59,976 bases of DNA from an uncultured Acidobacteriota bacterium. GTDB taxonomy: Bacteria > Acidobacteriota > UBA890. Shown here piece by piece: positions 3,520-53,890 of this stretch; position 1 is the first letter of the stretch, and each line of letters begins with the position of its first letter. The notes under the pieces are model-generated. The model had not been told where the DNA came from and made no database searches. It saw nothing but the letters and a program-made list of their open reading frames with translations. The stretch lies in the NCBI GenBank assembly GCA_964455175.1, contig CAYVUW010000004.1, positions 5,177-65,152 on the forward strand, in the 5' to 3' direction. Position numbers and translations under genes: made by a program.

Positions 3520-3568
3520 GCCACGTCAATCTGCAGCTCTTGAGAAGCTATCGGCGCCCAGAAGGGCG

Positions 3569-4474: not shown

Positions 4475-5388
4475 TGGCTCTCCTCGGCCCGGGTCGGCCC
4501 GATCTCCTGCAACGTTTCTGAACTCGGTGCCACCATGGTGCGACCAACGGTCTGTTGGTACACCTCATAAAACTCAGGCAGCTTGTCCTCAAGGTCAGAA
4601 GCATTTCTGATCGTCCACTCGTCCCCTCCCTGCGGCCCGTAGGGTTCCTGGAGGTTCCACGCCGTGGAGATGATCCAATAGGCGAACTCTTGCATTAGAA
4701 CCCGATGATGTCTTTCCCCCATGTCGTCACCGTATTGCTCAACGTTGTAGTAGCCCTCGTCAATTGATTTTTGCATCGCCTGTGCTAGTGCCGAGGTTTC
4801 ATTGATGCCCCACTCGTTGGGGAACGTGTAGTGCAATCCGACATCGCTCGTGTAATGCAGAATATGCTCCACGACCTCCATTACCTGCCCGCTCGGCACG
4901 TCTTCCATGATGATGTCGCAGATGCTGTTCTGGCTTCTAGTTAGGTCAAACGCTTCCTCTTCTGTTTGCCTGTAACTCCTATCGTCTCCGACGGGAACAG
5001 GAATCACCGCCCTGTAGCGGTAGTGGTTCTTGAGAATCTCCTCTTGCATTTCCAGGTCAAGGTTTTCATCGCGCGGATAGATTTCGGCAATGGTCTTTCC
5101 AACTAGGCGCATGAAGTCATCGGAGGCATCTTCACGTGCTACCAACTTCAAGCCGCTTGCCGTGAGTTCTTTTGTAAAGGGCGGATATTCATTCGTCGTT
5201 GCAACGTCCGTTACCTCGTACACATCAGCGGGAACCTCACCGATGGGTGAAATTAGGATGCAGCCGCCGAACATCTCCGGCGAAGCATTTGTTTGGTTTG
5301 CTGCGTTGTCGGTAACCGAGTCAGTAACAGTTGTACTGCATGCTCCAAAGACAAAAACTGTAAGAAAAACAGCTGCGAGCAACTTCAT
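4471..5388 (-). CDS. Zincin-like (ATLF/PPEP-type fold) lipoprotein with an atypical EHILH motif
   Basis: ATG at 5388 after GGAGG; lipobox FGAC. VVEHILHYTSDVG aligns with ALEEILHMVSDVG of 46499-47332, and downstream QEFAYW aligns with SEYIYW. Confidence 0.7.
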   Translation of the reverse strand: MKLLAAVFLTVFVFGACSTTVTDSVTDNAANQTNASPEMFGGCILISPIGEVPADVYEVTDVATTNEYPPFTKELTASGLKLVAREDASDDFMRLVGKTIAEIYPRDENLDLEMQEEILKNHYRYRAVIPVPVGDDRSYRQTEEEAFDLTRSQNSICDIIMEDVPSGQVMEVVEHILHYTSDVGLHYTFPNEWGINETSALAQAMQKSIDEGYYNVEQYGDDMGERHHRVLMQEFAYWIISTAWNLQEPYGPQGGDEWTIRNASDLEDKLPEFYEVYQQTVGRTMVAPSSETLQEIGPTRAEESQ

Positions 5389-5459
5389 TGGGAAACCTCC
5401 GGTTGATAGCCTGACGCCAAACATGGATGTTTGTGTGATTCTGGGAAGTTAGCTTCCCG

Positions 5460-6524
5460 TCAACTAGTCTCCTGCGTACCAACGGAATCGGGCACCGTTG
5501 TTTTCATCCAGTAAGCAGTATTGTGAAAGTTTGCTGCGACGCTTCCGGGCGGTACCAGCGCGTCACACGCGGCGCGTGAATCGTCATCAAGGGTCATTTC
5601 AAGAACCGGCAATAGATGTTGAAGGTGATCAAGTGTGCGCGCGCCGATCAGTGGTGCAGTAATACCCGGCTGATCCTTGCACCACAGCACCGCCAACTGT
5701 GCCGGAGTGATGCCAACTTGCTTGGCAACCTTAGCGAACTCACGAGCAATCTCCACACCACGTTGCGTTACCCGATCGGCATAAAACCCGCCACGCTTAG
5801 CGGCGCGTGAATCGGCTGGGTATTCATCGGCGTTGTTGTAACGTCCCGCTAGCACACCCATGCCCAAAGAGCCCCAGCAGATGATTCCGAGTCCGTGGCG
5901 CTGTGCCAGCGGGATTAGCTCGTTCTCGATACGCCGATCCAAAAGATTGTACGGTGGTTGCTCTGAGGCATAGCGCACCCAGCCCTTCATCTCGGACACC
6001 ATGATTCCCTCCATGACCAACCAAGCTGGTTGGGTCGAGCATCCGATGTAGCGCACCTTGCCTTGCTGTACCAGATCGTCGAGGGCGCCAATAGTTTCGT
6101 CGAGCGGAATATCGAAGGATGGGCGGTGCAACTGGTATAAGTCTATGTAGTCAGTTTGCAAGCGTCTTAATGACTCCTCGCAAGCGCGAATGATGTTCAG
6201 CCGCGAGTGCCCAGATTCATTAGGGCCGACACCGGGAACTTCTTCATCGAGTGAGATCCCGCGGCGCCTTCGTCCATGGTCGACCTTAGTGGCAATGAGG
6301 ACCTTATGGCGGATACCGCGTTCCTTAATGGTTTGGCCGATAATGGTCTCGCTCATACCCTCTGCGTAGACATCGCCGGTGTCTATCAGGTTGATGCCCG
6401 CGTCAATCGCTTGGTTGATGATCGCAGTTGCTTCATCCGCAGGCGTTGCGTCACCGAAGTTATCTGAGCCAAGACAGAGAGGGGAAACATTCACACCTGT
6501 GCGGCCGAGGATTCTGTATTGCAC
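5460..6524 (-). CDS. Aldo/keto reductase (paralog 1 of 3)
   Basis: GTG start ([18 protein letters not shown]) after AGGAAGG. Catalytic tetrad motifs are DTGDVY, ATK and LYQLH; [11 protein letters not shown] is also present. Confidence 0.93.
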
Positions 6525-6653
6525 TTTGCTTGCCTTCCTAGGATACGAAGCAATTCTTTTCACCGCGTTCGCGGACCGTACATCGTATACGATCTGTGCT
6601 CCTTTGCTGCTGCCACCGCTTTAATCTAAGACAACCTAGCTAGGAGACATGCT

Positions 6654-7502
6654 GTGATGTTGCGTTACTTACTCGTTGCATCGGTCGCGGTTACTTCTGT
6701 GGACGGGACCGCACCGGTGCAAGACGAAGTGTTGGCTGCGTTTCCTATTATTGAGACCGGGGAGAAAGTAATCATTCCGCCTCTGGGGGTACATCCCTTC
6801 TATCAGAAGTACATCAACGCGGAAGGCATCCTCATAGTCAGTTCGGTACAAGTTCCGGATGCGGCCCTCCTAGCGGCGCGGCGCACTGTTTTACATCTGC
6901 TTGCCCGCAGACCTGATGTGCACATAGAGATGTTGGCCTACAATCCGCGTATTTCCATCATGGGCGTCTCAGAGACTGCGTCGGATTTGCCCGAATTTGA
7001 TGTCGGCGCTGATGGCCAATGGGGGTTGGGGCAGATGCAGGGCGACCCAACCACGCTCGTTTCTGAACGCGGAATTTGCTACCCAGGGAACACTAAATAC
7101 CGCGCCAATTTTTTGTTACATGAATTTGTCCACAACATGCAGAATTTGGGTTGGATCCAGACCGACCCTGGTGTCGATGAAGAAATCTATGCGGCCTACA
7201 GCAACGCGGTAGCCCGAGGTTGGTTTGCTCCCCCGAGAACTGAAACGATGGGTATTGGACCAGATCGTTCCTTTGGGGATGACGAATACCTGACCCACAA
7301 CGTTAACGCTTGGTTTAACCTTAACGAATCGTTGCCGGGGCCCTGGGTAGATGTCCAGATTGGCGAGGCAGGGCCGCTCTCGGGGACGCGGGAACAGCTG
7401 CGCCAACGTGACCCGGCACTGTTTGAGATCATCGACCGTTTTCTTCCCGACTCGCTGGGGGACTTGATGAGCGGTTGTCCGCCGAATGTGGTTGATTGGT
7501 AA
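6654..7502 (+). CDS. Exported zincin-like metallopeptidase (canonical HEFVH)
   Basis: AGGAGA RBS and signal peptide. LLHEFVH zinc motif, downstream DEYL third-ligand motif and C-terminal LRQRDPALFEII helix typical of ATLF/PPEP-like domains. Confidence 0.75.
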   Translation: MMLRYLLVASVAVTSVDGTAPVQDEVLAAFPIIETGEKVIIPPLGVHPFYQKYINAEGILIVSSVQVPDAALLAARRTVLHLLARRPDVHIEMLAYNPRISIMGVSETASDLPEFDVGADGQWGLGQMQGDPTTLVSERGICYPGNTKYRANFLLHEFVHNMQNLGWIQTDPGVDEEIYAAYSNAVARGWFAPPRTETMGIGPDRSFGDDEYLTHNVNAWFNLNESLPGPWVDVQIGEAGPLSGTREQLRQRDPALFEIIDRFLPDSLGDLMSGCPPNVVDW

Positions 7503-7504
7503 AA

Positions 7505-8011
7505 ATGTCTCGTCGGTTCCTAATCAGCATCCTGGAAGTCACGCGAACAGCAGCGCGTGCCGTTGTAGTCCTTGCGTTCGCCACGATTGTCATCGTGGTG
7601 TTTGGGCAGGTCGTTTCACGCTTTCTATTCAACGCTCCGTTTTCATGGTCAGAGGAGTTGGCCCGATATCTCCAAGTTTGGCTGATCATGGTGGGATCGG
7701 CTGTCTGTCTTCGTAAAGGGCTGCATCTGACTGTTGACTACGCTGTCCATTCGTTGCCGGAGGGCAGCACGAAGCGAAACCTGCACCTCCTATCGCTAGC
7801 GGCAATTCTGTTTTTCCTAGGGATCGTATTCATCTCTGGCATCTCACTGATTACAGCGACGCTAAATCAACGAACACCTGCACTGCAGATACCAATCTGG
7901 GTTGTCTACTTGGCCATACCTGTCGGTAGTTTCTTGATGTTTTTGGAATCGGTTGGTCTCGTACTGACGGCATTCGACGGCGCGAGCCCGCCAATGGATG
8001 GTGACCAATGA
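7505..8011 (+). CDS. dctQ: TRAP transporter small permease
   Basis: About four hydrophobic segments; motifs QVVSRFLFNAPFSWSEELARY and GLHLTVD; directly upstream of dctM. Confidence 0.92.
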   Translation: MSRRFLISILEVTRTAARAVVVLAFATIVIVVFGQVVSRFLFNAPFSWSEELARYLQVWLIMVGSAVCLRKGLHLTVDYAVHSLPEGSTKRNLHLLSLAAILFFLGIVFISGISLITATLNQRTPALQIPIWVVYLAIPVGSFLMFLESVGLVLTAFDGASPPMDGDQ

Positions 8012-8033
8012 ACTTGGGGGAAGAAGTGCAGCG

Positions 8034-9317
8034 ATGATCGCGATTCTTGTTATCGCCATCGTGGTGTTTTTTCTCATCGGCATGCCGATTGCTTTTGCGA
8101 TCGGTGCCGGTTCGACGATTGCGATTCTATGGGATGGGACATTGCCGATCTCGATCGTCGCGCAGCGGATGTTCTTCGGACTCGATTCGTGGTTACTAAT
8201 GGCAATCCCGCTATTTATGCTCGCCGGCCAACTGATGGCTGCTGGTGGTATGTCGTCACGCTTGGTCGCCTTCACGACCGAACTTTTCGGTTTCATACGC
8301 GGCAGTTTGGGTTTCGTCTGCGTTGCGGCGTCAATGACTTTTGCGGGAGTTTCTGGTTCTTCGACCGCCGATACTGCGGCGGTCGGGTCGATTCTCTTGC
8401 CGCTGATGAAGGAGCGTGGCTACGACATGCGGTTCGCGACGGCATTGCAGGCCGCTGCAGGGTCGATCGGCCCAGTTATACCCCCCAGTTTGCTGATGAT
8501 CCTGATTGGGTTTACTACCAACACCTCGGTTTCAGCACTTTTTCTTGGAGGTATTGTTCCGGGGCTGTTAATCGGTCTTGGCTTGATGGTGGTGACGTAC
8601 GTGCATGCTGCCCGCGGCGGCCCTGCCTACCTGGGCACGCAAACGCACGTCGATTTCCGCCGCGTTGTGCGTACCGGTTTAGTGGCGGCGCCAGCACTTG
8701 GTATGCCAGTGATTATTCTAGTGGGCATCGTCGGAGGGATTTTTACCACTACCGAGGCTGCCGTCGTAGCGGTTGTGTACGGCCTGGGTGTCGGCATGTT
8801 CGTCTATAGAGAAATCTCGCTGCGTGACCTTCCGGGTATCATCGCCCGCTCCGCGGAGCTCGCCACAGTTATCATGTTTATACAGACGACGGCTTTTCTG
8901 TTTGCTTGGTTAATTACCGTTCACCAGGTTCCAGCCTTGTTAGCGAAGGCTTTCGTGGCACAAGTGAGCGGTCCCGGCACATTCTTCCTCCTCTACATCC
9001 CGCTTCTTTTGTTGGTCGGAGCGGTGATGGAGAGCTTCTCAGCCACGATCGTGTTACTGCCGATCATCTTTCCGATCGCACAGAGTCTCGGGGTAAACCC
9101 GGTTCACTTCGGGGTGGTTACGACCGTTGGGTGGGCGATTGGTTATGTCACGCCGCCGTTCGGCGCCACGCTGTTCGTTTCTTGTAGCCTTACCGGCAAG
9201 AGCATTCGAGAAACAACACCGTTCATTCTACCGATCGTCTTGTCAATGCTAGCTGTGTTACTACTGATAACCTTCTTCCCAGCAGTCGTGTTGTGGATTC
9301 CGGACATGTTTCAGTGA
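8034..9317 (+). CDS. dctM: TRAP transporter large permease
   Basis: Motifs LMAIPLFMLAGQLM, FAGVSGSSTADTAAVG, IGPVIPPS, NPVHFG and TPPFGATLF. Start placed at the ATG after GGGGGAAG (ORF track starts at 7998). Confidence 0.95.
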   Translation: MIAILVIAIVVFFLIGMPIAFAIGAGSTIAILWDGTLPISIVAQRMFFGLDSWLLMAIPLFMLAGQLMAAGGMSSRLVAFTTELFGFIRGSLGFVCVAASMTFAGVSGSSTADTAAVGSILLPLMKERGYDMRFATALQAAAGSIGPVIPPSLLMILIGFTTNTSVSALFLGGIVPGLLIGLGLMVVTYVHAARGGPAYLGTQTHVDFRRVVRTGLVAAPALGMPVIILVGIVGGIFTTTEAAVVAVVYGLGVGMFVYREISLRDLPGIIARSAELATVIMFIQTTAFLFAWLITVHQVPALLAKAFVAQVSGPGTFFLLYIPLLLLVGAVMESFSATIVLLPIIFPIAQSLGVNPVHFGVVTTVGWAIGYVTPPFGATLFVSCSLTGKSIRETTPFILPIVLSMLAVLLLITFFPAVVLWIPDMFQ

Positions 9318-9334
9318 AGGGCGAGGAGGGTGCG

Positions 9335-10324
9335 ATGTCGACAAGGCATGGTTTAGCGACCGTGCTACTGGCGGTGGTGCTGCTGGTGAGTTCTTGCGTA
9401 AGGGGTGCCCCCGATGTCTTTATTATCAAAGTGGCATCGTCGGCTCCGGCGGATGAGCCGGGATCACGGGCCCTGCAACGTTTCGTTGACGTCCTCAATG
9501 AAGCCGCCCCTGGACGTGTCGAGGCGAGACTATTCGCAGCAGCGGCACTCGGAAACGATCGAGATGTTACCGAAGGGTTGAAACTCGGCACAGTCGAGAT
9601 GCAGATGGCTTCGAACTCGACGCTGGCTACTTTCGTTCCCGAGATGTATGTCTTCGAGATGCCGTTTTTGTTTGAAGATAACGAGCACATGTTCGCGGTG
9701 CTCGATTCGGAAATAGGAGAGAGTTTTCGTCCTGCACTTGAACGTGAAGGCTTCCATCTGATGGGTTACTTCACATTTGGCTTGAGGCACATCATGACCA
9801 CGGAGAAGCCGATTGGCACGATGGCTGATCTGGGAGGCCTCAAGATTCGAACCATGGAGAGTCCACCACATCTAGATGCGTTTGCCGCCTTCGGTGCTAA
9901 TCCTCTGCCGATGGCTTACAACGAGCTATACACGTCCCTCGAAACAGGTGTCATTGATGGCGCCGAGGCTGCCAATTCGAATTATTATTCGAAGAAATTC
10001 TATGAAGTGGCGCCTTATTGGGCTCAAGTTGGCTGGCTGCGTTTAGTAGCACCTGTGATTATGAGCAAAGCGTTTTACGACAGCATGCCTCTAGATCTCC
10101 AAGAATTAGTCGACAAGACACTTAAAGATCTCGAAGCATACGAACGGCAGCTTTACACAGAGGTTGATGAGCAGCGGCTACGTGACCTGGAGGCGGCGGG
10201 GGTTAGCGTCACCTATCCTGCCGCCGGGGCTTTCGTTGAAGCGTCTTCGACTGTTTACGAGGCATGGCTCCAGAGAATTGGCGGGCGAAGCCAGCTAAAC
10301 GCGATCCTCGATTTTCCTCGTTGA
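9335..10324 (+). CDS. dctP: TRAP transporter substrate-binding protein, probable lipoprotein
   Basis: GAGGAGG RBS; lipobox VSSC. Motifs LGNDRDVTEGLKLGTVEM, KIRTMES (carboxylate-binding Arg) and ELYTSLETGVIDGAE. Confidence 0.92.
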   Translation: MSTRHGLATVLLAVVLLVSSCVRGAPDVFIIKVASSAPADEPGSRALQRFVDVLNEAAPGRVEARLFAAAALGNDRDVTEGLKLGTVEMQMASNSTLATFVPEMYVFEMPFLFEDNEHMFAVLDSEIGESFRPALEREGFHLMGYFTFGLRHIMTTEKPIGTMADLGGLKIRTMESPPHLDAFAAFGANPLPMAYNELYTSLETGVIDGAEAANSNYYSKKFYEVAPYWAQVGWLRLVAPVIMSKAFYDSMPLDLQELVDKTLKDLEAYERQLYTEVDEQRLRDLEAAGVSVTYPAAGAFVEASSTVYEAWLQRIGGRSQLNAILDFPR

Positions 10325-10357
10325 GGCCTTTGTGATCGAATACTTGAGCGTTTGCTT

Positions 10358-11350
10358 ATGACCGGTCGGTCCATTGCCATCCCAGTTGGAGAGATCCGCG
10401 GTGCGCACGCTCGAATCGAACCATACATTCATCGCACACCGATTTTAACGAGTGAGACACTGGATGCAGCGTTCGGTAGCCGCATTTTCTTCAAGTGTGA
10501 GAACTTTCAGAAGAGTGGAGCTTTCAAAGTAAGGGGTGCGTTCAATGCCTTACTTTCGCTGTCACGGGAGGATGCGGCGCGTGGCATCGTCACTAGCTCT
10601 TCTGGTAATCAAGCCGCCGCTGTTTCGCTTGCCGCCGCCGCACGGGGTGTCAGTGCTTACATCGCCATGCCAAAAATCGCCGTCGCGTCGAAAGTTGCAG
10701 CAGTTCAACGCTATGGCGGCAACATTGTCTGGGTTGAGTCGAATAATCGTATTCCTACCTCGGAAGAATACGACGCTACGGCATTGGCAATACAGGAAGA
10801 AACTGGCGCCAACCTCGTGCACCCGTACGACGACCTGAGAACAATTGCCGGTCAAGCAACCTGTGCCTTCGAGTTACTCGAAGAGGTACCCGATATTGAC
10901 TACTTGTTGGCACCAGTGGGTGGTGGTGGACTCCTGAGTGGCACCTGTTCGAGTGCCGCAGCATTAGCGACCGGTACGAAGGTTGTCGGCTGCGAGCCGG
11001 AGAAGGCTGACGACGCGTGGCGTTCTTTTCAAGAAGGAACAATCGTTCCTCAAATTGATCCTCAGACTATCGCCGACGGGCTGCGCACTTCATTGGGCGA
11101 GTATACGTTTCCGATCATCGCTGCGAACGTCAGTGAGATTGTCACAGTGTCGGAAGACGCGATCCTTAGGTCCATGCGGCTGGTTTGGGAAACCATGAAA
11201 ATCGTCATTGAGCCAAGTGCTGCGGTGCCTGTGGCGGCACTGTTAGAAAATAAGATTTCGGGACACGCGGATCGCATTGGGGTGATTCTGTCGGGTGGCA
11301 ACGTTGATCTGGACTCTTTGCCTGATTGGTCGGAGCTCTCAGCTGAGTAG
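10358..11350 (+). CDS. PLP fold-type II serine/threonine dehydratase family enzyme, serine racemase / hydroxyaspartate ammonia-lyase type
   Basis: FKCENFQKSGAFKVRGA (PLP Lys), SSSGNQA, PVGGGGLLSG, EPSAAV and ILSGGNVD. No C-terminal ACT regulatory domain. Confidence 0.88.
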   Translation: MTGRSIAIPVGEIRGAHARIEPYIHRTPILTSETLDAAFGSRIFFKCENFQKSGAFKVRGAFNALLSLSREDAARGIVTSSSGNQAAAVSLAAAARGVSAYIAMPKIAVASKVAAVQRYGGNIVWVESNNRIPTSEEYDATALAIQEETGANLVHPYDDLRTIAGQATCAFELLEEVPDIDYLLAPVGGGGLLSGTCSSAAALATGTKVVGCEPEKADDAWRSFQEGTIVPQIDPQTIADGLRTSLGEYTFPIIAANVSEIVTVSEDAILRSMRLVWETMKIVIEPSAAVPVAALLENKISGHADRIGVILSGGNVDLDSLPDWSELSAE

Positions 11351-11484
11351 AGACTCCATCGGATCAGTGCGCCTTGTCATCTCCCAGGCAATGCCCGAGT
11401 TAGATGAAGAAACTCAGAAGCAAACATGCGGGGAGCTTGGGCGGAAAGGCGCTTAGTACCGACTCAGGCAGGCCCGTGCTGCGT

Positions 11485-13179
11485 CTAGCTGATGATCCAG
11501 ATGAAGGATCCGATTAGCACAACGACCATAAAGCAGCTCGCCAGGAACCCAATCACTGTATAGGCGGTGGGTCGCATGATCTCGAAATCCGGATGTGCAA
11601 TCAGCACTGACCGTGCTGCTGGCGCAGTACCAGCTGGCAGCGTGAGGGGTTCTCCCTCTGGCTCATCTTCCGACACCGGGGTTCGCAGGCACTCGTAAAC
11701 TCTGTCAAGTGTCTTCTTGTCGGGCGGTTGGGTAACAAGGCTAACCGCCACCATCATCACCAGCGAGACGGTCAGGTAGATGATCATTTGCCACGGCAGA
11801 AACAGCTTGCCTTCGTAGAGCATGAACTCCGGAAGGGATCCTGCAAAGTGGTTATTGAAGCTCCAGCCGATGAAACCGATATCACTGGTGAACAACGCTG
11901 CTGCGTAGCCACCAAGCGTTGACGCCCAAGCGGCCGCAGCTGTGGCTCGTCGCCATACGAAACTCATCCAAATCGCCAAGCCCATCATCGCCCCCACCAT
12001 CCAGAAGACTTCGAGCCCCCTCACAACTCCTGGCAACGTGAAGGCGATCGATAGCCCGGCGAGCACCACGGTGATCGAGGTTAGCCTGCCCACTAGCACG
12101 TAGTGGCGCTCGCTTCGACCTGGACGGATCAGGGGCCTATAGATGTTTTCGGTAAAGAGGGCGGCCGCTGCGACCATCAAACAGTCACATGAGCTCATGA
12201 CCGCCGCTAGCACCGAAGCGATGAACAACCCGATCAGCCCAGGCGCGATCTGCGGTAGCAGGTCCCTGGCCATCAGACCGTAGACATGGTCTGGATTCAC
12301 CGTTGTGCCAGCGTAATATCCTACAGCGCACATGGCAGTCAGCACCCAGGCGATGGTGACGATGCGCTTGAGAAACATCCCGGCAACTAGGCCCACACGT
12401 GCGTCATCTTCCGTTCTTCCGGCGCCAATCATTTGCATCGAGTATGGCGTGGCAACCCACCCGATGAGTCCATTAAGAGCGAGGATGACGACGTAGAGGA
12501 CGGTGATATCACTGGGAGCAACAATCGAGAAAAGCTCCGGATTATCGACTGAAGCGCGCCCGCGCAGTCCCTCTAGACCGCCGACTGCATTCAGGGCAAA
12601 TGGCAGAATTAGAAATGAAAGTACAATCGTGAGAACGCCCTGAACTGCGTCCGTTAGGATCGCTGCGTTTAATCCTCCCGCGACGCCGTAGATGACAAAC
12701 AAAATAGTCATGCCTATGATCGCCATCTCTGGGCTAATTGCCCCACCGGAAACTGGGGCGATCAGGGCGGCAGTAGCCTTGAGGACAACACCGATATTTA
12801 CAGACAGCTGGAACATGCCGACAATCGCGAAAAGTACGGCTACGCTCCGACCGTAACGAATTAAAAGATAGTCAGACGTGGTTACCGCGCGCATGCGTCG
12901 GAAGAGAGGTGCTAGCAGCCAGTAGAACGGCGTGGAGAACAGCCACAGCCACTGGTACCAAATACCCGATGCACCGACCGTGTATGTCTTTGATGCAACG
13001 CCGATTGCCTGGTCAGTGTTCGTCCCTGTGCCAAAGGAAAAGAATGTCATCAGGAGCTTGCCGGATTGGCGATCGCTGATGAAGAAGTTCGAAGAAGTCT
13101 TCACGCGACGAGCAGCCGAAATGCCTAGTACAGTCACACCGATCAGGTACGCTGCAACGACCACCCAGTCGATAAGCAC
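11485..13179 (-). CDS. Sodium:solute symporter (SSS) family transporter, substrate unknown
   Basis: About 13-14 hydrophobic segments. Motifs YGVAGGLNAAILTDAVQG, PGLIGLFIASVLAAVMSSCD and YVLVGRLT. Confidence 0.92.
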   Translation of the reverse strand: MLIDWVVVAAYLIGVTVLGISAARRVKTSSNFFISDRQSGKLLMTFFSFGTGTNTDQAIGVASKTYTVGASGIWYQWLWLFSTPFYWLLAPLFRRMRAVTTSDYLLIRYGRSVAVLFAIVGMFQLSVNIGVVLKATAALIAPVSGGAISPEMAIIGMTILFVIYGVAGGLNAAILTDAVQGVLTIVLSFLILPFALNAVGGLEGLRGRASVDNPELFSIVAPSDITVLYVVILALNGLIGWVATPYSMQMIGAGRTEDDARVGLVAGMFLKRIVTIAWVLTAMCAVGYYAGTTVNPDHVYGLMARDLLPQIAPGLIGLFIASVLAAVMSSCDCLMVAAAALFTENIYRPLIRPGRSERHYVLVGRLTSITVVLAGLSIAFTLPGVVRGLEVFWMVGAMMGLAIWMSFVWRRATAAAAWASTLGGYAAALFTSDIGFIGWSFNNHFAGSLPEFMLYEGKLFLPWQMIIYLTVSLVMMVAVSLVTQPPDKKTLDRVYECLRTPVSEDEPEGEPLTLPAGTAPAARSVLIAHPDFEIMRPTAYTVIGFLASCFMVVVLIGSFIWIIS

Positions 13180-13226
13180 TTTGTTCTTGCCTCAGCTAAA
13201 TTCCTGCGCTGGAGAAGTTGGAAGGG

Positions 13227-14813
13227 CTAAGCGAGCAAAGTGGTGAGCTCGTCTTCGTTTCCGGTCATTTCCCAGCGGGTCAGAGAAATCGGAATGATAC
13301 CGCCGCCCATGAAATCATCCATGAAGCGTTTCAACTTAAACTCGCCGCCCTGAAGTTGCGCGCATTCAGCCAGTAGCTGCAGGATCATGTTCTTGCCACC
13401 TACATAGCTCACGGAGTGTGCCGGCGCTCGTAACGCCTCCTCAATATCCCACCACACAGCATCGCTGTCGGCATCAGCCCACGGGTAGGGAAGCTTCTCG
13501 ACGAACCCTTTGATTCCATCCTGCATGGTGTATTCATTGGCGTGCATTTTGAGGTCCGAAATAGCCCGCGCTGCGCGAAACGCCATCCAGATGTAAGTAA
13601 TTTCCTTAGCCCGTGGCCGATCATCGAGTATGCCGAGCTGCAGCATCATTTCCTCGACGCCGAACGATAGCGCCTCAGACCGTGACTCATGCATGTCGAA
13701 TAGACGAATAGTGTCTCGGATCGGCCGGCTATTGCCATCCTGGTACCAAATCGTCCTATCGCGTACATAGTAGTGCCCAAAGAATGTATGCGTGATCTGT
13801 GTCATTGGTTCACGGTCAGAACACTGCTCAAAGAAGCCTCGGTAGTGAGGTCTAAGATAGGCACTCATCCCCCAAGTACGTGGGTAGTGGGCAGGCGGCA
13901 GTGGCTCTAAACTATCCGGAACGGTAATGATCTCGCCATCTCGAAGAAAGGCTAGTAGCTCTTGCGCTGCAGCCCCCTGCCGATTGAGGTTCTCAGCCTC
14001 GCAGGCGGTGAGCTTGAACGGGGGCAAGCCTCTGTTTTTGTGCTCCTCAAGCTTCAAGAAAGCAATGGCGCGATGGTAGTCGTTACAGATTGTCGTAAGC
14101 AGTTTGTCCCAATCGTGAGGGACAAGCAGGACGTCCTTCAACCATCGGTTGTAGTTGTTCTTGCCGATACCGGCGGGTGCTGATACGCGGCCCTGATTGT
14201 CGATGAGCCATTCACGGAATCGGTGCATAGCGGAGAGCGCTTTCTCTGCATCGTTTGCTAACTCTGGCTGTTTTGCGGCAAGTTCGTCCACAAGTTCGCG
14301 CATTACGATAAGCTCGCGTTCCTGTACCCGAATTGCCACGGTTGCTAGGTCATCAGCTATCTCTGAAAGGTTGCCACGGGCTTGGTCGAGCACGGTGGGG
14401 ACGCACTGCAACTTTGTACGTAGCTGGCTGATCGCATCGTCGGCAACGGGCAAGCTAGGAACTCGCGGCGACCAATCATCGTTCATCCGCGAGTAGTGCA
14501 CCAACAGCCTTGGATAGACTCCGTCGGTGATGTTGTAAAAGCCAGGATCGCGTGCCCAGGGCCGCAGAACTTCATGATCGAAGGCTACGCCGTTTAACTC
14601 GGCGCGGACCACGTGATAGTCGACTTGTTCACTGACTTTCCAGTGCGCGATGTCATACGACGCTAGCAGGTCTCTGAATACTTGAAGTTCTTCGCGCTTG
14701 CGCTGCATTGCTGGCGGCGTGTAATCGGGAACCCCATCGTTGGTTTCTGGTACTAATGAAGCGCGAAACTCCTCGAATAGGCTGATCAGGTCAGAATGCC
14801 CTGGCGGGGTCAA
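13227..14813 (-). CDS. DUF885-like protein without a signal peptide, HTFFGH variant
   Basis: Shares QVDYHVVRAELNG, PWARDPGFY, KLEEHKNRGLP and ISLTRWEMTG with 39523-41259 and 57445-59070. No hydrophobic N-terminus. Confidence 0.75.
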   Translation of the reverse strand: MTPPGHSDLISLFEEFRASLVPETNDGVPDYTPPAMQRKREELQVFRDLLASYDIAHWKVSEQVDYHVVRAELNGVAFDHEVLRPWARDPGFYNITDGVYPRLLVHYSRMNDDWSPRVPSLPVADDAISQLRTKLQCVPTVLDQARGNLSEIADDLATVAIRVQERELIVMRELVDELAAKQPELANDAEKALSAMHRFREWLIDNQGRVSAPAGIGKNNYNRWLKDVLLVPHDWDKLLTTICNDYHRAIAFLKLEEHKNRGLPPFKLTACEAENLNRQGAAAQELLAFLRDGEIITVPDSLEPLPPAHYPRTWGMSAYLRPHYRGFFEQCSDREPMTQITHTFFGHYYVRDRTIWYQDGNSRPIRDTIRLFDMHESRSEALSFGVEEMMLQLGILDDRPRAKEITYIWMAFRAARAISDLKMHANEYTMQDGIKGFVEKLPYPWADADSDAVWWDIEEALRAPAHSVSYVGGKNMILQLLAECAQLQGGEFKLKRFMDDFMGGGIIPISLTRWEMTGNEDELTTLLA

Positions 14814-14817
14814 TGGC

Positions 14818-15843
14818 TCATACCTTCATCTTCATCCAATTAGCGGTATTGTGAAAATCGGCGACCGCACTGCCCGGCGGAACCAGCTGGTCACACATCG
14901 TGCGTAGTTCAAGGGGAAGCTCGATGTCAAGAAGAGGAATGAGTTGCTCGAGCTGTTTTAGGGTGCGCGGCCCGACCAGTGGTGCAGTGATCCCAGGTTG
15001 GTCTTTACACCAGAGAACCGCGAACTGAGCTGGAGTGAGCTCGATCTGGTCCGCCAGCTCAGCGAACTTCCGCGCTACGGCGATGCCACGCTCCGTTACG
15101 CGGTCCGCATAGTAGCCACCGCGGAGGGCAGCGCGTGACTCCTCGGGGTATTCCTCGGGGTCTTTGTAGCGACCGGCGAGCACCGCTTGGGCCATCGGTG
15201 CCCAACTGATGATCCCAAGACCCCATTTTTGACAGAGCGGAATAAGTTCATTCTCGATGCGGCGGTCGAGCAGGTTGTACGGTGGTTGTTCGGAGACGTA
15301 CCGGGCATAGCCTTTTAACTCACTTATATACAATGCTTCCATAACCATCCAAGCTGGGTGTGTCGAGCAGCCGATGTAGCGAATTTTCCCCTGCCGAACC
15401 AAATCGTCGAGCGCGCCTAACGTCTCATCAATTGGGATCTCAGGCGATGGTCTATGCATCTGATAGAGGTCAATGTAGTCGGTCTGTAGACGTTTCAGTG
15501 TTTGCTCACAGCCCCTGATGATGTTGAGGCGTGAATGGCCGTGGTCGTTGGCATTGATGCCGGGAGAACTCGTGTCGAGATTGAGGCCGGGCACGTGATC
15601 GATCTTTGTGGATATAAGTACCGAGTGCCGCCGCCCGTTTCCTTTCAGGGCTCTGCCAATGATGCGCTCACCTTCTCCATCGGCGTAAATGTCGCCGGTA
15701 TCCAGTAAATTGATGCCAGCATCGAGTGCTCGATTGAGCATCTCGACGCACTCGGGCTCAGGGGTAGGGTCTGCGAAGTTGTCGGTACCGAAGCACAATG
15801 GTGAGACTTTAAGGCCTGTGCGGCCTAGCTCCCGGTATTCCAT
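14818..15843 (-). CDS. Aldo/keto reductase (paralog 2 of 3)
   Basis: MEYRELGRTGLKVSPLCFG, DTGDIY, STK, LYQMH and [11 protein letters not shown]. Confidence 0.93.
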   Translation of the reverse strand: MEYRELGRTGLKVSPLCFGTDNFADPTPEPECVEMLNRALDAGINLLDTGDIYADGEGERIIGRALKGNGRRHSVLISTKIDHVPGLNLDTSSPGINANDHGHSRLNIIRGCEQTLKRLQTDYIDLYQMHRPSPEIPIDETLGALDDLVRQGKIRYIGCSTHPAWMVMEALYISELKGYARYVSEQPPYNLLDRRIENELIPLCQKWGLGIISWAPMAQAVLAGRYKDPEEYPEESRAALRGGYYADRVTERGIAVARKFAELADQIELTPAQFAVLWCKDQPGITAPLVGPRTLKQLEQLIPLLDIELPLELRTMCDQLVPPGSAVADFHNTANWMKMKV

Positions 15844-16128
15844 GAGACCCTACGGGGGTTGAGAATCAGGCTAATCATTCGATTGTCATCGATCTGGTGG
15901 AGCACACAACTTCTAAGGTAGGGATGTAGCCAAAGAGAGGCTAACGAAAGCGTCAGCCGCGATTTCAAAGTCGTTGGGACCAATCGCGCACAATACTGAT
16001 ACATGAACGGCCTGGCAAGCACGGTGGGTAGGGTTTAGCGGAGTGAGCCGGGAACTAACATCCTTCGTCTACTTGACACCTCACGGCATCGCACCGACGA
16101 TGGGCGATCAAGGCTTTCAGGATGTTCA

Positions 16129-17103
16129 ATGAAAAACACCGAAAAACACCACTTCCAACAAGTTGATGTAAACAGCGTGCCACGTTCCGCCCAAGTGGCT
16201 ACCTTAATGCGAGCACAGCTCTGCGAGGGGTTCGATGGCCTCGACATCGCTCTGGCAGGTGTTCCCTTCGATGGTGGTTCGTCGTTCCGTGCTGGAGCTC
16301 GACACGGGCCGGCGCAAATGCGCGAAATGTCTCGCCTTATACGGCAGGCTCACTACTCGACGAACATTGCACCTTTTGAGATTTGTCGCATCGGCGACGT
16401 TGGGGATGCACCGATTAACCCCCTTGACATGTCCGCCAGTCTCGAAAGCATCGAGTCTTTTTTCTCGGCTATTCGTGCAGCTGGCGCATTGCCTCTAGTT
16501 GCGGGAGGAGATCACACGATCACTTTGCCAATTCTGCGGGCGGTTGCCGGGGACGCGCCCGTTGGCCTACTGCAAATTGATGCCCATTCCGACACACAAG
16601 ACCGTATGTTCGGCCAGATCTATGCGAACGGAACTCCGATTCGACGAGCCATCGAGGAAGGTTTGCTGGAGCCATCACACATTATTCAAATCGGGATCCG
16701 CGGTACGTTGTTTTCAGCGGATGAACTTGACTGGGCTCGTGAGCAAGGCATCACGATCATGACGATCGACGATGTTTATGAACTCGGGGCAAATGGCATC
16801 ATGAATGCGGCCAGAGAGACTTTGCACGGCCTGCCGACCTACATTACCGTCGACATGGACGCCATCGACCCAGCATTCGCGCCCGGCGTTGGAGGCCTGG
16901 AACCTGGTGGAATGACCGTGCGTGACGTGCAGTTGTTGTTGCGAGGTATGGAAGGGTTAGACCTGGTGGGGGCTGACATCAATGAAGTGTCTCCACCACT
17001 CGATCCAACCGGAAACACGGCCGTTGTTGCCTGCAACCTTATGTTTGAACTGCTTTGTATTTTAGCTGCGAGGGTCAGAACAACCCGTAAGGAGCAAGAA
17101 TGA
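16129..17103 (+). CDS. Ureohydrolase (arginase/agmatinase superfamily; agmatinase- or guanidinobutyrase-like)
   Basis: GVPFDGG..RAGARHGP, GGDH, DAHSD and DMDAIDP binuclear-metal motifs, plus DINEVSPPLD. Confidence 0.92.
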   Translation: MKNTEKHHFQQVDVNSVPRSAQVATLMRAQLCEGFDGLDIALAGVPFDGGSSFRAGARHGPAQMREMSRLIRQAHYSTNIAPFEICRIGDVGDAPINPLDMSASLESIESFFSAIRAAGALPLVAGGDHTITLPILRAVAGDAPVGLLQIDAHSDTQDRMFGQIYANGTPIRRAIEEGLLEPSHIIQIGIRGTLFSADELDWAREQGITIMTIDDVYELGANGIMNAARETLHGLPTYITVDMDAIDPAFAPGVGGLEPGGMTVRDVQLLLRGMEGLDLVGADINEVSPPLDPTGNTAVVACNLMFELLCILAARVRTTRKEQE

Positions 17104-18380
17104 GTTTATTTACACCGCTGCTAATTGCTGCCGCCATGATTGGAACAGCGGGGGGACTTTCCCCGCAGCGGGGGGAGACTTTGCCTGATATAGATATCTC
17201 TACATCGCCAAATGGCATCGTACTGTTGCCCGATAATGTGCCATTGGTTTTTAGGGATGTGTTCGTTCGCTATACGAAGGTCGTTGCGCCGAACAGCAAA
17301 CCAATCCATATCCTGGCCCAGGATGGGTGGAGCGAAGCACGCATCCTCAAGGCCCGAAACGTTCTCGAGCATATACTCACAGACGTTCCAGGGACTCGAT
17401 ATGGTGCCGACAAAAGCATTGTAGCCAACACAATGGCGGACAATCGCGCAACATTAACTCTGTTTAACACCGAGCCCGATATGCGCGAAGCTTTTCGAGG
17501 ACCGTTACGCCACGTCGCCCTTGGAATGCAAGATCTGCGTGCCAACGAGTCTCCTGTCGAAGGGCACGAAGACTACATGGCGCACCGCACCAGGGACGCT
17601 TCGTTCGAGGAAGTCCTACATATGGTGCATGACTATGGCATCAAGCCGGCGTTGCCGCAGATGCAACTTGACTTGATCCGTATCACAGACGTGGCTATGG
17701 AGCGCGGGCTCTGGCAAGGTCGGCAGGACGACCTTGAAAACGAGCCTAACGAATACGTCGCGGCGATATATGACAACTATCTGGATCTGTGGACCGTGCC
17801 ACCGACCGTTTATGAGGGCCGCCCTATTGAGACTGGGCGCATCCCGGACGGCACATCACACTTTGGCATCTATGGCGCGCGGGGGCGGGCTGGTCTGCGC
17901 AATCTCGACCCCGAAGGGCTGGCTATCCTCCAGGAATTCTTCCCTCCATTCCTGACCTATACTCCCGAGCTGCCATCGGAATTTACAGGCGCGTTTTCGC
18001 TCCAGTTCGATCCGGATCTGCGGTATACGGCCAAGTCACAGCATCTCAAAGATGTAACCCTCACGGGTGACAACGATGCTGGTTTAATTGGCAATGACTG
18101 GGACAATATTTTCTTGGGAAACGCTGGCGACAACATGTTACGTGGCAACGGTGGCAAGGATCTCCTCGATGGCAGCACCGGAACCGACACCGCGATATTC
18201 GCGGGCAACATGGCTGACTATGAGGTAATTCGTGACGGGAATATAACTAGGGTAATTGACAAGCGCGCCGCCCGAGACGGGGCTGATTTGTTGCTCAACA
18301 TGGAACGGATTGCTTTCGCCGACCAGGTGATCGACCTTACACAACGTTATCGGCGCTTACGAATCAACTTCTACCAATAG
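17100..18380 (+). CDS. Exported zincin-like protein (EEVLH) with C-terminal RTX/serralysin-type Ca-binding repeats
   Basis: ATGA overlap with the ureohydrolase stop; hydrophobic N-terminus; RDASFEEVLH and NEYVAA. Gly-rich nonapeptides (GNAGDNMLR, GNGGKDLLD, GSTGTDTAI) are followed by a DGADLLLNMERIAFAD tail. Confidence 0.75.
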   Translation: MSLFTPLLIAAAMIGTAGGLSPQRGETLPDIDISTSPNGIVLLPDNVPLVFRDVFVRYTKVVAPNSKPIHILAQDGWSEARILKARNVLEHILTDVPGTRYGADKSIVANTMADNRATLTLFNTEPDMREAFRGPLRHVALGMQDLRANESPVEGHEDYMAHRTRDASFEEVLHMVHDYGIKPALPQMQLDLIRITDVAMERGLWQGRQDDLENEPNEYVAAIYDNYLDLWTVPPTVYEGRPIETGRIPDGTSHFGIYGARGRAGLRNLDPEGLAILQEFFPPFLTYTPELPSEFTGAFSLQFDPDLRYTAKSQHLKDVTLTGDNDAGLIGNDWDNIFLGNAGDNMLRGNGGKDLLDGSTGTDTAIFAGNMADYEVIRDGNITRVIDKRAARDGADLLLNMERIAFADQVIDLTQRYRRLRINFYQ

Positions 18381-18439: not shown

Positions 18440-19822
18440 CTAGCGGATCAGCAAAATTCTTTCGTTGCGTGGATACAACAACTCGACGCCCTGATTCGTA
18501 ACTATGACGTTGTCTTCGAAGTTGATTCGTAAGCGCTGGTCGCCGAATGATGGCAGAGCCGTGTGGGTTATGAACTCGAATGAGAAGATGTTGTTGGACT
18601 GAATCATGAGGTTGGCTCGGAGTTCGCGGAACGGTGCAAACGAAGGACCGACCGCCACTTGGCTGTTGCCCGTGTTGCCGACGACATGACAATCGATCGA
18701 AATACCAGTCACACTGGGTTGGTCAAAGCTCTCGACGATCTGCCTGTCGATTTCACCAAAGTTGACGAAAGGTGTGTATACAAACCCTTCGGCCTCGAGC
18801 GCCGCGACGACCGCAGCGAGTGTTTCACGTGCGGTGCGGCCTGTTCGAATGTTTCGGCGCATGATGTCGCGGGCCCGGCGGCCTTCATCCCAGGCATGCC
18901 TAATGTCCTCTGGCAGAGCTGTTTCATCTTCTCGCAGCAGGTAGGCGTTTCGCTTCATGTCGGTACCGAAATTGAGGTATTTCACCCCCGTGTCGAACTG
19001 CAGCAGGTCGCCTCGCTGAAAAGCGTATGTGCTTGAGCGGTATTCTTGGGGCTCTGCGAGGGCGGAATGAATCACTATGGGTCTAGTGAGGCCGAACGAA
19101 GATCCCAGACCGGCCTCTAACAGGCGTTCTTGCACCCACCAGGCGACGTCTTCACCGGTTGTAATTCCAGGCGTGATAACTTCGCGTGATAAGGCTCGCT
19201 CCAGGATCCGACGGGTCATGTCACCGGCCTGGGCGAAGGCGACGATCTCCGATTGAACCCGGCGTACTCGGAAGTCGGTGATGAGATTCTCGCTGGAGAC
19301 AAGCCGGGAGGCGTAAGTCTCGCCGATTGCTTCCACAAGCTGCTGATACCCGGAATGCGACAGGCCGTCAGCCGCTGCAAGCCACGCGGACGTGTTGACG
19401 GCGATCCGCTCCGGGTCCCGTTCCTCAATAAATTGACGCAATTCCGTAGCATTGTGGTTGGGATACCAGGCATTCCAGTCGTTCCAAGCAAAGATGTCGT
19501 ACGCGCCGCTCGTGTACATTCCTTGGCCACGGCCGGCAAGCACGGCACGCTCGATCCTGTCACCACCGCGATCGGTAAAAATGAAATAGCCGGCGGTTCC
19601 ACCAAGATCGAGTGCTAGCGCGTCAGGGTTGCCATCACGGATGACATGAATCCACATGTCTATACCGTTGTCCCGCATCACGCCGGGGAGCACCACGTCG
19701 AACTTCTCTCTTTGGATCAGGTCGAGCATTTCTGCCCGCGCCTGGGCTTCTTGCGCAGATGCTTGGGCCCCCGAGATGATGGTGACCAAAGATGCGAGCA
19801 CTGCAAGGATTTGCTTCTTCAT
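18440..19822 (-). CDS. Exported M24 family protein, HxxGNTGN variant
   Basis: ATG at 19822 after AGGAG; signal MKKQILAVLASL...ASA. Motifs QFDTG..GTDMKR, CHVVGNTGN, SFEF and FEDN. Confidence 0.85.
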   Translation of the reverse strand: MKKQILAVLASLVTIISGAQASAQEAQARAEMLDLIQREKFDVVLPGVMRDNGIDMWIHVIRDGNPDALALDLGGTAGYFIFTDRGGDRIERAVLAGRGQGMYTSGAYDIFAWNDWNAWYPNHNATELRQFIEERDPERIAVNTSAWLAAADGLSHSGYQQLVEAIGETYASRLVSSENLITDFRVRRVQSEIVAFAQAGDMTRRILERALSREVITPGITTGEDVAWWVQERLLEAGLGSSFGLTRPIVIHSALAEPQEYRSSTYAFQRGDLLQFDTGVKYLNFGTDMKRNAYLLREDETALPEDIRHAWDEGRRARDIMRRNIRTGRTARETLAAVVAALEAEGFVYTPFVNFGEIDRQIVESFDQPSVTGISIDCHVVGNTGNSQVAVGPSFAPFRELRANLMIQSNNIFSFEFITHTALPSFGDQRLRINFEDNVIVTNQGVELLYPRNERILLIR

Positions 19823-20035
19823 GATCTTTCTCCTGGCCAAGCATAAGGGGCAATGTTGGGCGATTCAGAATCGCATCGATCTCTACACGTTTCAGCTAAA
19901 CCCTACTTTACTGACTCCTTGGTTAACCTCGGCGAGGGCACATTGGATGTGAAAGTGCTGGAACTTTTACTTATTCAGGCGGCAGTACCCGCAGCTAAGA
20001 TCATGGCTTCAATAGTGGGCTGCAATCCTTGAAAG

Positions 20036-21118: not shown

Positions 21119-21387
21119 GGTTGTTTCCTTCTGTCGAGTCACTCAGCGGGTCATCCAGCTCACATAATAAGCGCCGGGGAAGTTTAGCTGAGCGTTGTTT
21201 TTCTAAGGGCTTTAGGAGTTGATGGTATGTGTCTGGTAGCACCGGATAATACTCATGAATGCCGACCGCTGCTTACGGTCTTTCTTCTGTTGGTAACTGG
21301 CAGAGTACTCTCCGAGGTATACGTGGCACGAAGATCTATAACAATGGATGAGTCTGAATACCGTCTCGCCAGATAGTGAGGAGATTA

Positions 21388-39320: not shown

Positions 39321-39522
39321 GAATTACTTCTCCTGGTAATCAGCGGCATTGCAATCAGCTCCGTATACTGCTCGGAACGATTAATGGGTAAAAGAGACAA
39401 GAATTTCTTTTTAGCAATTCTTTACGCTTCTACGCTCCTTGTGAAGAGACAAGATTAGAGTAAAGAACTAAGGTTCTGTGCCATTTTTCAGATGCGCACA
39501 TCAACTTCGCGAAGGTTCTGCC

Positions 39523-53857: not shown

Positions 53858-53890
53858 CAAACCGCGTCTCTTGCCGGCGTAAAATCCCAA

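What the first reader, a model, noticed from the sequence alone, without database searches (positions are those of the whole stretch)
11485..15843. Cytoplasmic DUF885 pseudo-enzyme between an AKR and an SSS symporter
Seen: unlike its two paralogs, the 13227-14813 copy has no signal peptide, and its motif (13773-13790) is H-T-F-F-G-H, with Thr at the Glu position. Both His and the downstream SEAL Glu are kept, and the frame is full length. Inference: a metal-dependent ligand-binding or non-hydrolytic protein acting on the SSS substrate inside the cell.
Basis: partly seen in the sequence, partly recalled or inferred. Interest (0 to 1): 0.55.

Follow-up and report, generated by a model that had tools for sequence, protein, structure and literature searches.

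The report
Cytoplasmic Glu-less DUF885 paired with symporter
A zinc-peptidase-like protein of unknown function has lost its export signal and its textbook catalytic glutamate, yet is strongly conserved and always travels with one sodium symporter, so it probably still processes an imported peptide fragment inside the cell rather than being a dead enzyme.

Summary
The 528-aa DUF885 gene (13227-14813, minus strand) reads H-T-F-F-G-H at 13773-13790. In-frame stops 2 and 4 codons upstream of its TTG start leave no room for a signal peptide. Its two window paralogs are exported and read HE.

It is not a private mutation. It defines a well-supported clade of 58 proteins (plus one exported HN sister) in marine Acidobacteriota, Aminicenantes and Woeseiaceae, with Thr, Val or Cys at the Glu position. 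57 of them lack a signal. They share three extra loops and a clade-specific His375-Glu376. dN/dS is 0.08-0.25.

The symporter link is real: the transporter lies in 16 of 25 loci, and its close orthologs occur only in relatives that have this gene. The AKR link is weaker (7 loci). The wider setting is clusters of exported proline-type peptidases (M24, S15, amidohydrolase) and TonB-type receptors.

"Pseudo-enzyme" is not shown. In this subfamily HE is the minority state even among exported members (HD, HN, H-x2-H), while both His, Glu380, Glu387-Glu388 and two Arg are universal.

My best reading is a metal-dependent cytoplasmic enzyme with a different general base. It is a new variant of an uncharacterised family, of moderate interest. 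Earlier notes of this scan linked other DUF885 genes to proline peptidases on other DNA.

The parts
14818..15843 (-). Cytoplasmic aldo-keto reductase, first gene of the three-gene unit
   Evidence: Pfam Aldo_ket_red at 230.6 bits. No NCBIfam equivalog cut-off is reached. There is no hydrophobic N-terminus. Its stop lies 4 nt before the DUF885 start. An AKR sits beside the DUF885 clade in 7 of 25 loci.
13227..14813 (-). Cytoplasmic DUF885-clade protein, 528 aa, TTG start
   Evidence: AF2 model with pLDDT 90.7. Fold matches DUF885 structures at Z 24.6-26.3. It belongs to a 59-row clade with support 100.
13773..13790 (-). H342-T-F-F-G-H347 motif, with Thr at the position of the zincin general-base Glu
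   Evidence: The position is T, V or C in all 58 members of the signal-less clade.
13686..13691 (-). Clade-specific His375-Glu376, at the first turn of the helix that carries Glu380
   Evidence: 100% conserved in the clade and at most 3% elsewhere, where Asp and Gly are commonest. The helix spans 376-393 in the model.
13650..13676 (-). Glu380 (S-E-A-L) to Glu387-Glu388, the universally conserved acidic residues on the ligand helix
13740..13751 (-). Clade-specific four-residue insert I355-W-Y-Q358, just after the motif
11485..13179 (-). Sodium:solute symporter (SSS), 564 aa, starting 47 nt downstream of the DUF885 stop
   Evidence: Pfam SSF at 110.2 bits. All NCBIfam equivalog cut-offs are missed (PutP 74 against 515.5). 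Orthologs of at least 69% identity occur only in relatives with the DUF885 clade, and beside it.
15990..16018 (-). Promoter-like site upstream of the AKR, in the divergent intergenic region
   Evidence: Consensus scan only, 9 of 12 matches. The count in the region is not above the shuffled expectation. Weak.

Best explanation
The gene encodes a conserved cytoplasmic member of a derived clade within a DUF885 subfamily. The fold is that of a two-lobed gluzincin closest to M32 carboxypeptidases.

In this clade the export signal was lost and the Glu after the first His became Thr, Val or Cys. Three loops and a His375-Glu376 pair were added around the site. Both His, Glu380, Glu387-Glu388 and Arg366/Arg378 were kept.

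The gene is transcribed with, and inherited with, a dedicated SSS transporter. The pair usually lies inside clusters of exported proline-type peptidases (M24, S15 CocE/NonD, amidohydrolase 'Xaa-Pro dipeptidase'-like) and TonB-type outer-membrane barrels.

Proposed working, inferred rather than shown:
- Exported peptidases trim peptides outside the cytoplasm.
- The SSS imports a small carboxylate-bearing product, either a dipeptide-like or a modified amino acid.
- The cytoplasmic DUF885 binds it through its metal and Arg pair and converts it, most likely by hydrolysis.
- The general base comes from somewhere other than the motif. Candidates are Glu376 or Glu387/Glu388.
- The AKR, where present, handles a carbonyl product or side product.

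What is shown: the anatomy, the clade, the selection, the fold and the gene linkage. What is inferred: metal binding, catalysis and the substrate class.
For: - No room for a signal peptide, here or in 16 of 18 ortholog loci at the DNA level.
- The clade has support 100, with T/V/C at residue 343 in all 58 members.
- Thr and Val are isosteres, so the position is kept for shape and not chemistry.
- H342, H347, R366, E380, E387, E388, R413 and R416 are at least 90% conserved both in the clade and outside it.
- Clade-specific invariant H375/E376 and three loops.
- dN/dS is 0.08-0.25.
- The AF2 model has pLDDT 90.7. It matches DUF885 structures at Z 24.6-26.3 and then M32 carboxypeptidases at Z 10-11.8 over 340-370 residues.
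- The SSS is present in 16 of 25 loci and directly adjacent in 14. Only two full-length loci lack it.
- SSS orthologs of at least 69% identity occur only in the relatives that carry the clade.
- Exported M24 genes occur in 18 loci, S15 in 6, amidohydrolase in 6 and TonB-type barrels in 4. All have signal peptides.
Against: - No DUF885 protein has a demonstrated activity, so 'hydrolase' rests on fold and clan only.
- The motif Glu is the general base in every characterised gluzincin (established knowledge), and Val cannot replace it.
- SSS transporters are not known to carry peptides. The transporter matches no substrate-specific model.
- A 53%-identical SSS paralog sits in a sugar-type context.
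- Two complete loci lack the SSS.
Confidence: 0.5

Rival explanations
1. True pseudo-enzyme. It is a cytoplasmic metal-dependent ligand-binding protein with no turnover. It might act as a sink, sensor or regulator for the SSS cargo, or as a partner that gates the transporter.
For: The canonical general base is absent, and is replaced by chemically inert Val in 40 of the 58 clade members (tree groups). The protein is tightly linked to a transporter. Ligand-contact-type residues (Arg366, Arg378) are kept.
Against: The same position is non-Glu in most exported relatives, which sit among exported peptidases, so loss of Glu is not special to a regulatory role. The clade gained an invariant His-Glu pair and loops under dN/dS of 0.08-0.25. 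No DNA-binding or signalling domain is present and no fused form was found. Cytoplasmic binding partners of SSS importers are not an established class.
Confidence: 0.2
2. A non-hydrolytic metal enzyme, such as a lyase, isomerase or cyclase, acts on the imported compound. Its product bears a carbonyl that the co-transcribed AKR reduces.
For: An AKR recurs beside the clade in four separate lineages: the window genus with G010, G017/G019, L040, and the Woeseiaceae locus L034. The remodelled site has a new His375-Glu376. The canonical hydrolytic base is lost.
Against: The AKR is absent from 18 of 25 loci. This genome places AKR paralogs next to several unrelated peptidase-like genes, so the AKR may be a general neighbour. 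No precedent was tested.
Confidence: 0.15
3. An artefact: a mis-called start, a sequencing error, or a decaying gene copy.
For: The start codon is TTG. Some MAG loci show the gene split (L036, L037, L040).
Against: Stops lie 2 and 4 codons upstream. The TTG and the N-terminal 35 residues are conserved in orthologs. The codon is ACA, two changes away from Glu. 58 clade members agree. dN/dS is well below 1. The split copies also have a split SSS next to them, which is typical of assembly indels.
Confidence: 0.02

Closest known systems
DUF885 (Pfam PF05960) structural-genomics proteins 3U24 (Shewanella), 3IUK (Arthrobacter) and 3O0Y (Colwellia)
   Same: Same fold over about 470 residues (Z 24.6-26.3, rmsd 3.6-3.9). 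The Pfam hit is above the gathering score. They share the Glu...Glu helix.
   Different: Only 15-17% identical. The solved ones are lipoproteins or exported proteins of unknown function. Canonical members read H-E-x-x-P-G-H. This protein reads H-T-F-F-G-H, one residue shorter and without Glu. It is cytoplasmic and has three extra loops.
Exported paralogs of the same subfamily in this genome (window 39478-41259 and 57445-59070, and four more elsewhere in the genome)
   Same: 34-41% identical over the full length, with the same H-x4-H spacing and the same Arg366, Arg378, Glu380 and Glu387-388.
   Different: They have signal or lipoprotein peptides and HE. They lack the I-W-Y-Q insert and His375-Glu376. 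One follows an exported M24 gene rather than a transporter.
M32 carboxypeptidases (Taq-type: BsuCP 3HQ2, FisCP 5E3X, PfuCP 1K9X, TcMCP-1 3DWC)
   Same: They are the best characterised structural neighbours, with Z 10-11.8 over 340-370 residues. They are cytoplasmic two-lobed gluzincins that take only short peptides and bind the C-terminal carboxylate (established knowledge).
   Different: 8-11% identity. M32 enzymes have a strict HExxH with a catalytic Glu. This protein shows no sequence-level match.
M2/M3 peptidases (ACE, ACE2, Dcp, oligopeptidase F, thimet oligopeptidase)
   Same: Weak whole-fold resemblance (Foldseek E of 0.009-0.08; Z 7-10). A lead from memory only: ACE2 pairs with a sodium-coupled amino acid transporter (B0AT1).
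   Different: TM-scores are about 0.3. Those families have a canonical HExxH. The ACE2 pairing uses its collectrin-like domain and an SLC6 transporter, not an SSS. No physical pairing was tested here.

Membership tests
DUF885 (PF05960) | Pfam model hit above the gathering score | tested here: met
   84.2 bits against a cut-off of 32.4, E 2.1e-23. The best stretch covers only the C-terminal part.
DUF885 (PF05960) | DUF885 fold as in 3U24, 3IUK and 3O0Y | tested here: met
   Z 24.6-26.3 with 468-476 residues aligned. Foldseek E 1.5e-13, TM 0.73.
DUF885 (PF05960) | Canonical H-E-x-x-P-G-H motif | tested here: not met
   The motif is H-T-F-F-G-H. Distant canonical relatives in the same search read HEG[IM]PGH.
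Gluzincin metallopeptidases (clan MA, HExxH plus Glu) | Two His metal ligands on or after the active-site helix | tested here: inconclusive
   H342 and H347 are invariant. However, the spacing is i, i+5 rather than i, i+4, and metal binding was not tested.
Gluzincin metallopeptidases (clan MA, HExxH plus Glu) | General-base Glu directly after the first His | tested here: not met
   Thr343 here, and T, V or C throughout the clade.
Gluzincin metallopeptidases (clan MA, HExxH plus Glu) | Third-ligand Glu on the following helix | tested here: met
   E380 lies 33 residues after H347 and is at least 90% conserved in all groups. E387-E388 are also universal. Which of them binds the metal was not testable.
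M32 carboxypeptidase | Sequence membership and the HExxH motif | tested here: not met
   No Pfam or PDB sequence hit. The fold resemblance of Z 10-11.8 is the only link.
Sodium:solute symporter family (PF00474), neighbour gene | Pfam SSF over the full domain | tested here: met
   110.2 bits, covering profile positions 1-406 of 406.
PutP, PanF and MctP equivalogs (substrate-specific SSS) | NCBIfam equivalog cut-off | tested here: not met
   PutP 74 against 515.5; PanF 61 against 328; MctP 29.4 against 625.
Aldo-keto reductase (PF00248), neighbour gene | Pfam Aldo_ket_red over the full domain | tested here: met
   230.6 bits. No NCBIfam equivalog cut-off is reached.

The most novel reading that the evidence does not exclude
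The clade may be a gluzincin-fold enzyme whose general base has moved off the metal-binding motif, to Glu376 on the ligand helix or to Glu387/388. It would work as the dedicated intracellular partner of an SSS transporter that imports a small peptide or modified imino/amino acid. That would give both the first activity for a DUF885 protein and the first peptide-type cargo for an SSS carrier. By extension, most of this DUF885 subfamily (HD, HN, H-x2-H) would use a non-canonical catalytic arrangement.
Probability: 0.2. Interest if true: 0.7.

Novelty: new variant of a known kind. Interest (0 to 1): 0.45.

Why it matters
DUF885 is a large bacterial family with solved structures but no known activity. 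This clade offers an unusually clean handle on it. It is a single cytoplasmic, soluble protein whose substrate must be the cargo of one co-inherited transporter. It also has a natural 'mutant' motif that tests whether the family really uses zincin chemistry.

The finding also warns against calling proteins pseudo-enzymes from one missing motif residue. In this subfamily the textbook Glu is the minority state.

Ecologically, the module belongs to peptide-scavenging loci of marine sediment Acidobacteriota, Aminicenantes and Woeseiaceae, which are important degraders of detrital protein.

Tried and rejected
- **Upstream alternative start:** rejected, because stops lie 2 and 4 codons upstream.
- **Private mutation or sequencing error:** rejected.
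- **Compensation by an acidic residue at 375/376 only in Glu-less clades:** rejected as stated. An Asp at 375 or 376 is common in nearly all clades, including canonical HE ones. What is clade-specific is the change of that Asp to His375 plus a new Glu376.
- **Fusion to the SSS or to another domain (Rosetta-stone evidence):** none was found among longer proteins. The only hit was a tandem DUF885 of 1127 aa, and this search is weak evidence.
- **Literature:** no paper characterises DUF885 or PF05960.
- **Protein Atlas:** it returned only DUF885 clusters.
- **PDB sequence search for the exported M24 neighbour:** no hit.
- **Proline or hydroxyproline catabolic genes beside the pair:** none seen among the recurrent neighbours that I scanned.
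- **DNA-level synteny with same-genus genomes that lack the gene:** too diverged to read an insertion or deletion.
- **Tools not usable:** Model coordinates are not exposed, so distances around the metal site could not be measured.
Full report
**1. Observation**

The region holds three co-directional minus-strand genes:
- an AKR at 14818-15843;
- a DUF885 gene at 13227-14813;
- an SSS transporter at 11485-13179.

The gaps between them are 4 nt and 47 nt. Pfam confirms Aldo_ket_red (230.6 bits), DUF885 (84.2 bits against a cut-off of 32.4) and SSF (110.2 bits).

Residues 342-347 of the DUF885 protein are H-T-F-F-G-H. They are encoded by cat aca ttc ttt ggg cac at 13790-13773.

Read upstream in frame from the TTG start, there are stops 2 and 4 codons away. 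No alternative start can therefore add a signal peptide.

A tblastn search of the window finds exactly two paralogs, at 39478-41259 and 57445-59070. They are 37-38% identical. They read HEFIGH and HEMVGH, and carry hydrophobic N-terminal extensions of 37-60 residues.

The whole genome is a 2.45-Mb Acidobacteriota MAG, 89% complete. It holds seven members of this subfamily. Five read HE; the four complete ones among them are exported, and the fifth is cut by a contig end. One has an H-x2-H motif. This one reads HT.

**2. Not a private change: a clade**

Among 120 database relatives, every protein of about 523-545 aa without an N-terminal extension has Thr, Val or Cys after the first His. This holds down to about 47% identity. 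Thr is found in close relatives and Val in more distant ones.

A tree of 161 rows (FastTree; local support only) gives a 59-row clade with support 100. Its features are:
- 58 rows read HT (16), HV (41) or HC (1).
- 57 of the 59 rows lack a signal peptide.
- The earliest branch (P0061) is an HN lipoprotein.
- One nested member (P0060) has regained a signal, or its gene was called with one.

At the DNA level, 16 of 18 ortholog loci leave only 12-17 codons between the nearest upstream in-frame stop and the conserved L-F-x-E-F-R anchor. The lack of a signal is therefore a property of the clade and not of gene calling.

Pairwise dN/dS among five orthologs is 0.08-0.25, although dS is near saturation in some pairs.

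The clade is rare and patchy. It occurs in 9 of 401 sampled Acidobacteriota genomes, mostly in the window's own order. It also occurs in Aminicenantes, Marinacidobacterales and Woeseiaceae MAGs.

**3. The Glu position in the wider subfamily**

A census of the raw motifs gives the following.

| Group | Motif state (rows) |
|---|---|
| Exported relatives | H-x2-H (31), HN (17), HE-x2-GH (13), HD (13), canonical HE-x2-PGH (6), HA-x2-PGH (5), a few others |
| Signal-less clade | HV (about 40), HT (16), HC (1) |

The textbook HE is therefore a minority state, and it is confined to one exported clade plus the distant canonical group.

By contrast, H342, H347, R366, E380, E387, E388, R413 and R416 are at least 90% conserved both inside and outside the clade.

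Thr and Val are isosteres. Residue 343 thus looks to be selected for shape, not chemistry (inference).

Residues invariant in the clade but almost absent elsewhere are:
- three loops: N94-H106, W314-Y319 and I355-W-Y-Q358;
- Y349, W409, W455 and E459;
- H375-E376, which replace the Asp-Gly common in other clades.

E376 sits at the first turn of helix 376-393, four residues before E380. By helix geometry it should face the same way as E380. This is an inference, because I could not read coordinates.

**4. Fold**

The AlphaFold2 model built on a 43-sequence alignment has pLDDT 90.7 and pTM 0.91.

| Structural match | Score |
|---|---|
| Three DUF885 structural-genomics entries | Z 24.6-26.3; Foldseek E 1.5e-13 to 2e-8 |
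| M32 carboxypeptidases | Z 10-11.8 over 340-370 residues |
| M3 enzymes and MATCAP | Z 9-10 |
| ACE | about Z 7 |

The protein is thus a two-lobed, short-peptide-type gluzincin fold. No DUF885 protein has a published activity in the searched library.

**5. Gene neighbourhood**

I compared 24 loci from species-representative genomes with the window.

*The SSS transporter.* It lies in the fetched stretch in 16 of the 25 loci, and is directly adjacent on the same strand in 14. Seven of the nine loci without it are contigs that end within about 2 kb. Only two complete loci lack it.

Among 41 relatives, SSS orthologs of at least 69% identity occur in exactly six genomes besides the window's own. 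All six carry the DUF885 clade, with the SSS next to it or two genes away. A 52-55% identical SSS paralog has a different distribution.

*Exported peptidases and receptors.* The most frequent other neighbours are:

| Neighbour | Loci |
|---|---|
| Divergent exported M24 proteins (41 genes, up to four per locus) | 18 |
| Exported CocE/NonD S15 hydrolases | 6 |
| Exported amidohydrolases, best hit the Caulobacter-type Xaa-Pro dipeptidase, below cut-off | 6 |
| TonB-type barrels with a CarboxypepD_reg domain, in Aminicenantes-type loci | 4 |

The full-length M24 and S15 products almost all start with signal peptides; the amidohydrolases mostly do.

*The AKR.* Cytoplasmic AKRs occur in 7 loci from four lineages.

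*The window itself.* It is a peptidase island with M28 x4, M24 x3, S15 and DUF885 x3. The exported DUF885 at 57445 directly follows an exported M24 gene.

**6. Interpretation**

The conserved picture has exported peptidases outside the cell, then one inner-membrane SSS, then one cytoplasmic DUF885-clade protein, sometimes with an AKR.

The most economical reading is that the protein acts on the SSS cargo inside the cell. Four things together argue for a retuned, still metal-dependent enzyme rather than a decayed one:
- universal retention of the two His, the acidic helix and the Arg residues;
- newly fixed loops and the His375-Glu376 pair;
- strong purifying selection;
- the fact that exported sisters living among peptidases also lack the motif Glu.

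I put about 0.5 on a catalytic, probably hydrolytic, enzyme with a base elsewhere. I put 0.15 on non-hydrolytic chemistry feeding the AKR. The remaining 0.15 covers other possibilities.

The substrate is unknown. The proline-type flavour of the neighbours suggests a small Pro- or Hyp-containing or otherwise blocked peptide fragment, or an imino acid derivative. That flavour comes from the M24 and S15 genes and the Xaa-Pro dipeptidase-like amidohydrolase. Earlier scan notes on other genomes, which I checked only in part, also tie DUF885 to hydroxyproline operons and M24 genes.

This is weak evidence, for three reasons. The SSS reaches no substrate-specific model. A 53%-identical paralog sits with Gfo/Idh/MocA, a TIM-barrel isomerase-like gene and a 3-keto-disaccharide hydrolase. 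No Pro or Hyp catabolic genes were seen beside the pair.

**7. Comparison and novelty**

The protein is a member of DUF885 by Pfam score and fold, but it fails the canonical motif. It fails the defining general-base feature of the gluzincins while keeping the ligand set.

It resembles M32 carboxypeptidases in fold only.

From memory, the six-residue H-E-x-x-G-H form of the paralogs, together with a downstream E-E, recalls the M49 DPP III motifs. I did not test that.

The finding is a new, well-delimited variant within an uncharacterised family. It is not a new kind of system. Its value is as an experimental entry point into DUF885 and as a caution about calling pseudo-enzymes from a single motif residue.

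**8. Limits**

- The tree is FastTree only and unrooted.
- Signal peptides were called by a hydrophobicity and extension heuristic.
- Synteny ORFs were called mechanically.
- Several loci come from the same lineages as the genome search relatives, so they are not independent.

Noticed in passing
window 18440-19840 (-), 22989-24374 (-), 55992-57422 (+); loci L017-L040: A divergent subfamily of exported M24 proteins of about 450-490 aa. Pfam hits are only 38-66 bits, and phmmer finds no PDB hit. They occur in 1-4 copies next to DUF885-subfamily genes in 18 of 25 loci. In the window one lies directly upstream of the exported DUF885 at 57445. The M24-DUF885 pairing looks like a conserved two-enzyme unit.
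   Followed up: partly
window 21376-22980, 42625-44163, 50625-52229, 52223-53890, 53891-55813: The window is a peptidase island. It holds four M28 genes, an S15 X-Pro dipeptidyl-peptidase, three M24 genes and three DUF885 genes within 60 kb.
   Followed up: partly
proteins P0088-P0123 and own-genome locus L043 (G000:C2:45659-47188): A large exported clade of the same subfamily (31 rows) has the motif shortened to T-H-x-x-H-W. That gives a His spacing of i, i+3 and no Glu at all, yet it keeps E380 and E387-E388.
   Followed up: partly
L047 (G040:C4) 3250-5058 (-), 6022-7188 (-), 7459-8940 (-): In another Acidobacteriota genome, a 42%-identical SSS transporter sits beside an amidohydrolase and a full-length bacterial ACE-like M2 peptidase (Pfam 765 bits).
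   Followed up: no
L045 (G007:C1) 3808-12465: A 53%-identical SSS paralog lies with Gfo/Idh/MocA, an AP_endonuc_2 TIM barrel, a 3-keto-disaccharide hydrolase and an ornithine cyclodeaminase/mu-crystallin gene. That is a sugar-like or imino-acid context, unlike that of the DUF885-linked SSS.
   Followed up: no
window 7496-10324 (+); L018, L033, L038: A TRAP transporter (DctQ, DctM, DctP) recurs within a few kb of the DUF885-SSS pair in the window's own lineage, in a Woeseia MAG and in one further MAG. The link was not analysed.
   Followed up: no
window 14813; L018 and L026 at 8001: The rare TTG start codon of the DUF885 gene is conserved at the same position in orthologs of 80-85% identity.
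   Followed up: partly
L036, L037, L040: In three MAG loci the clade gene appears split or truncated, and in two of them (L037, L040) the adjacent SSS does too. These are probably assembly indels rather than pseudogenes.
   Followed up: no
window 16129-18380 (+): An agmatinase-like arginase-family gene (below the equivalog cut-off) overlaps the start of an exported 426-aa protein with no Pfam match. The pair is transcribed divergently from the AKR, and is conserved only in the closest relatives (L017, L018).
   Followed up: no
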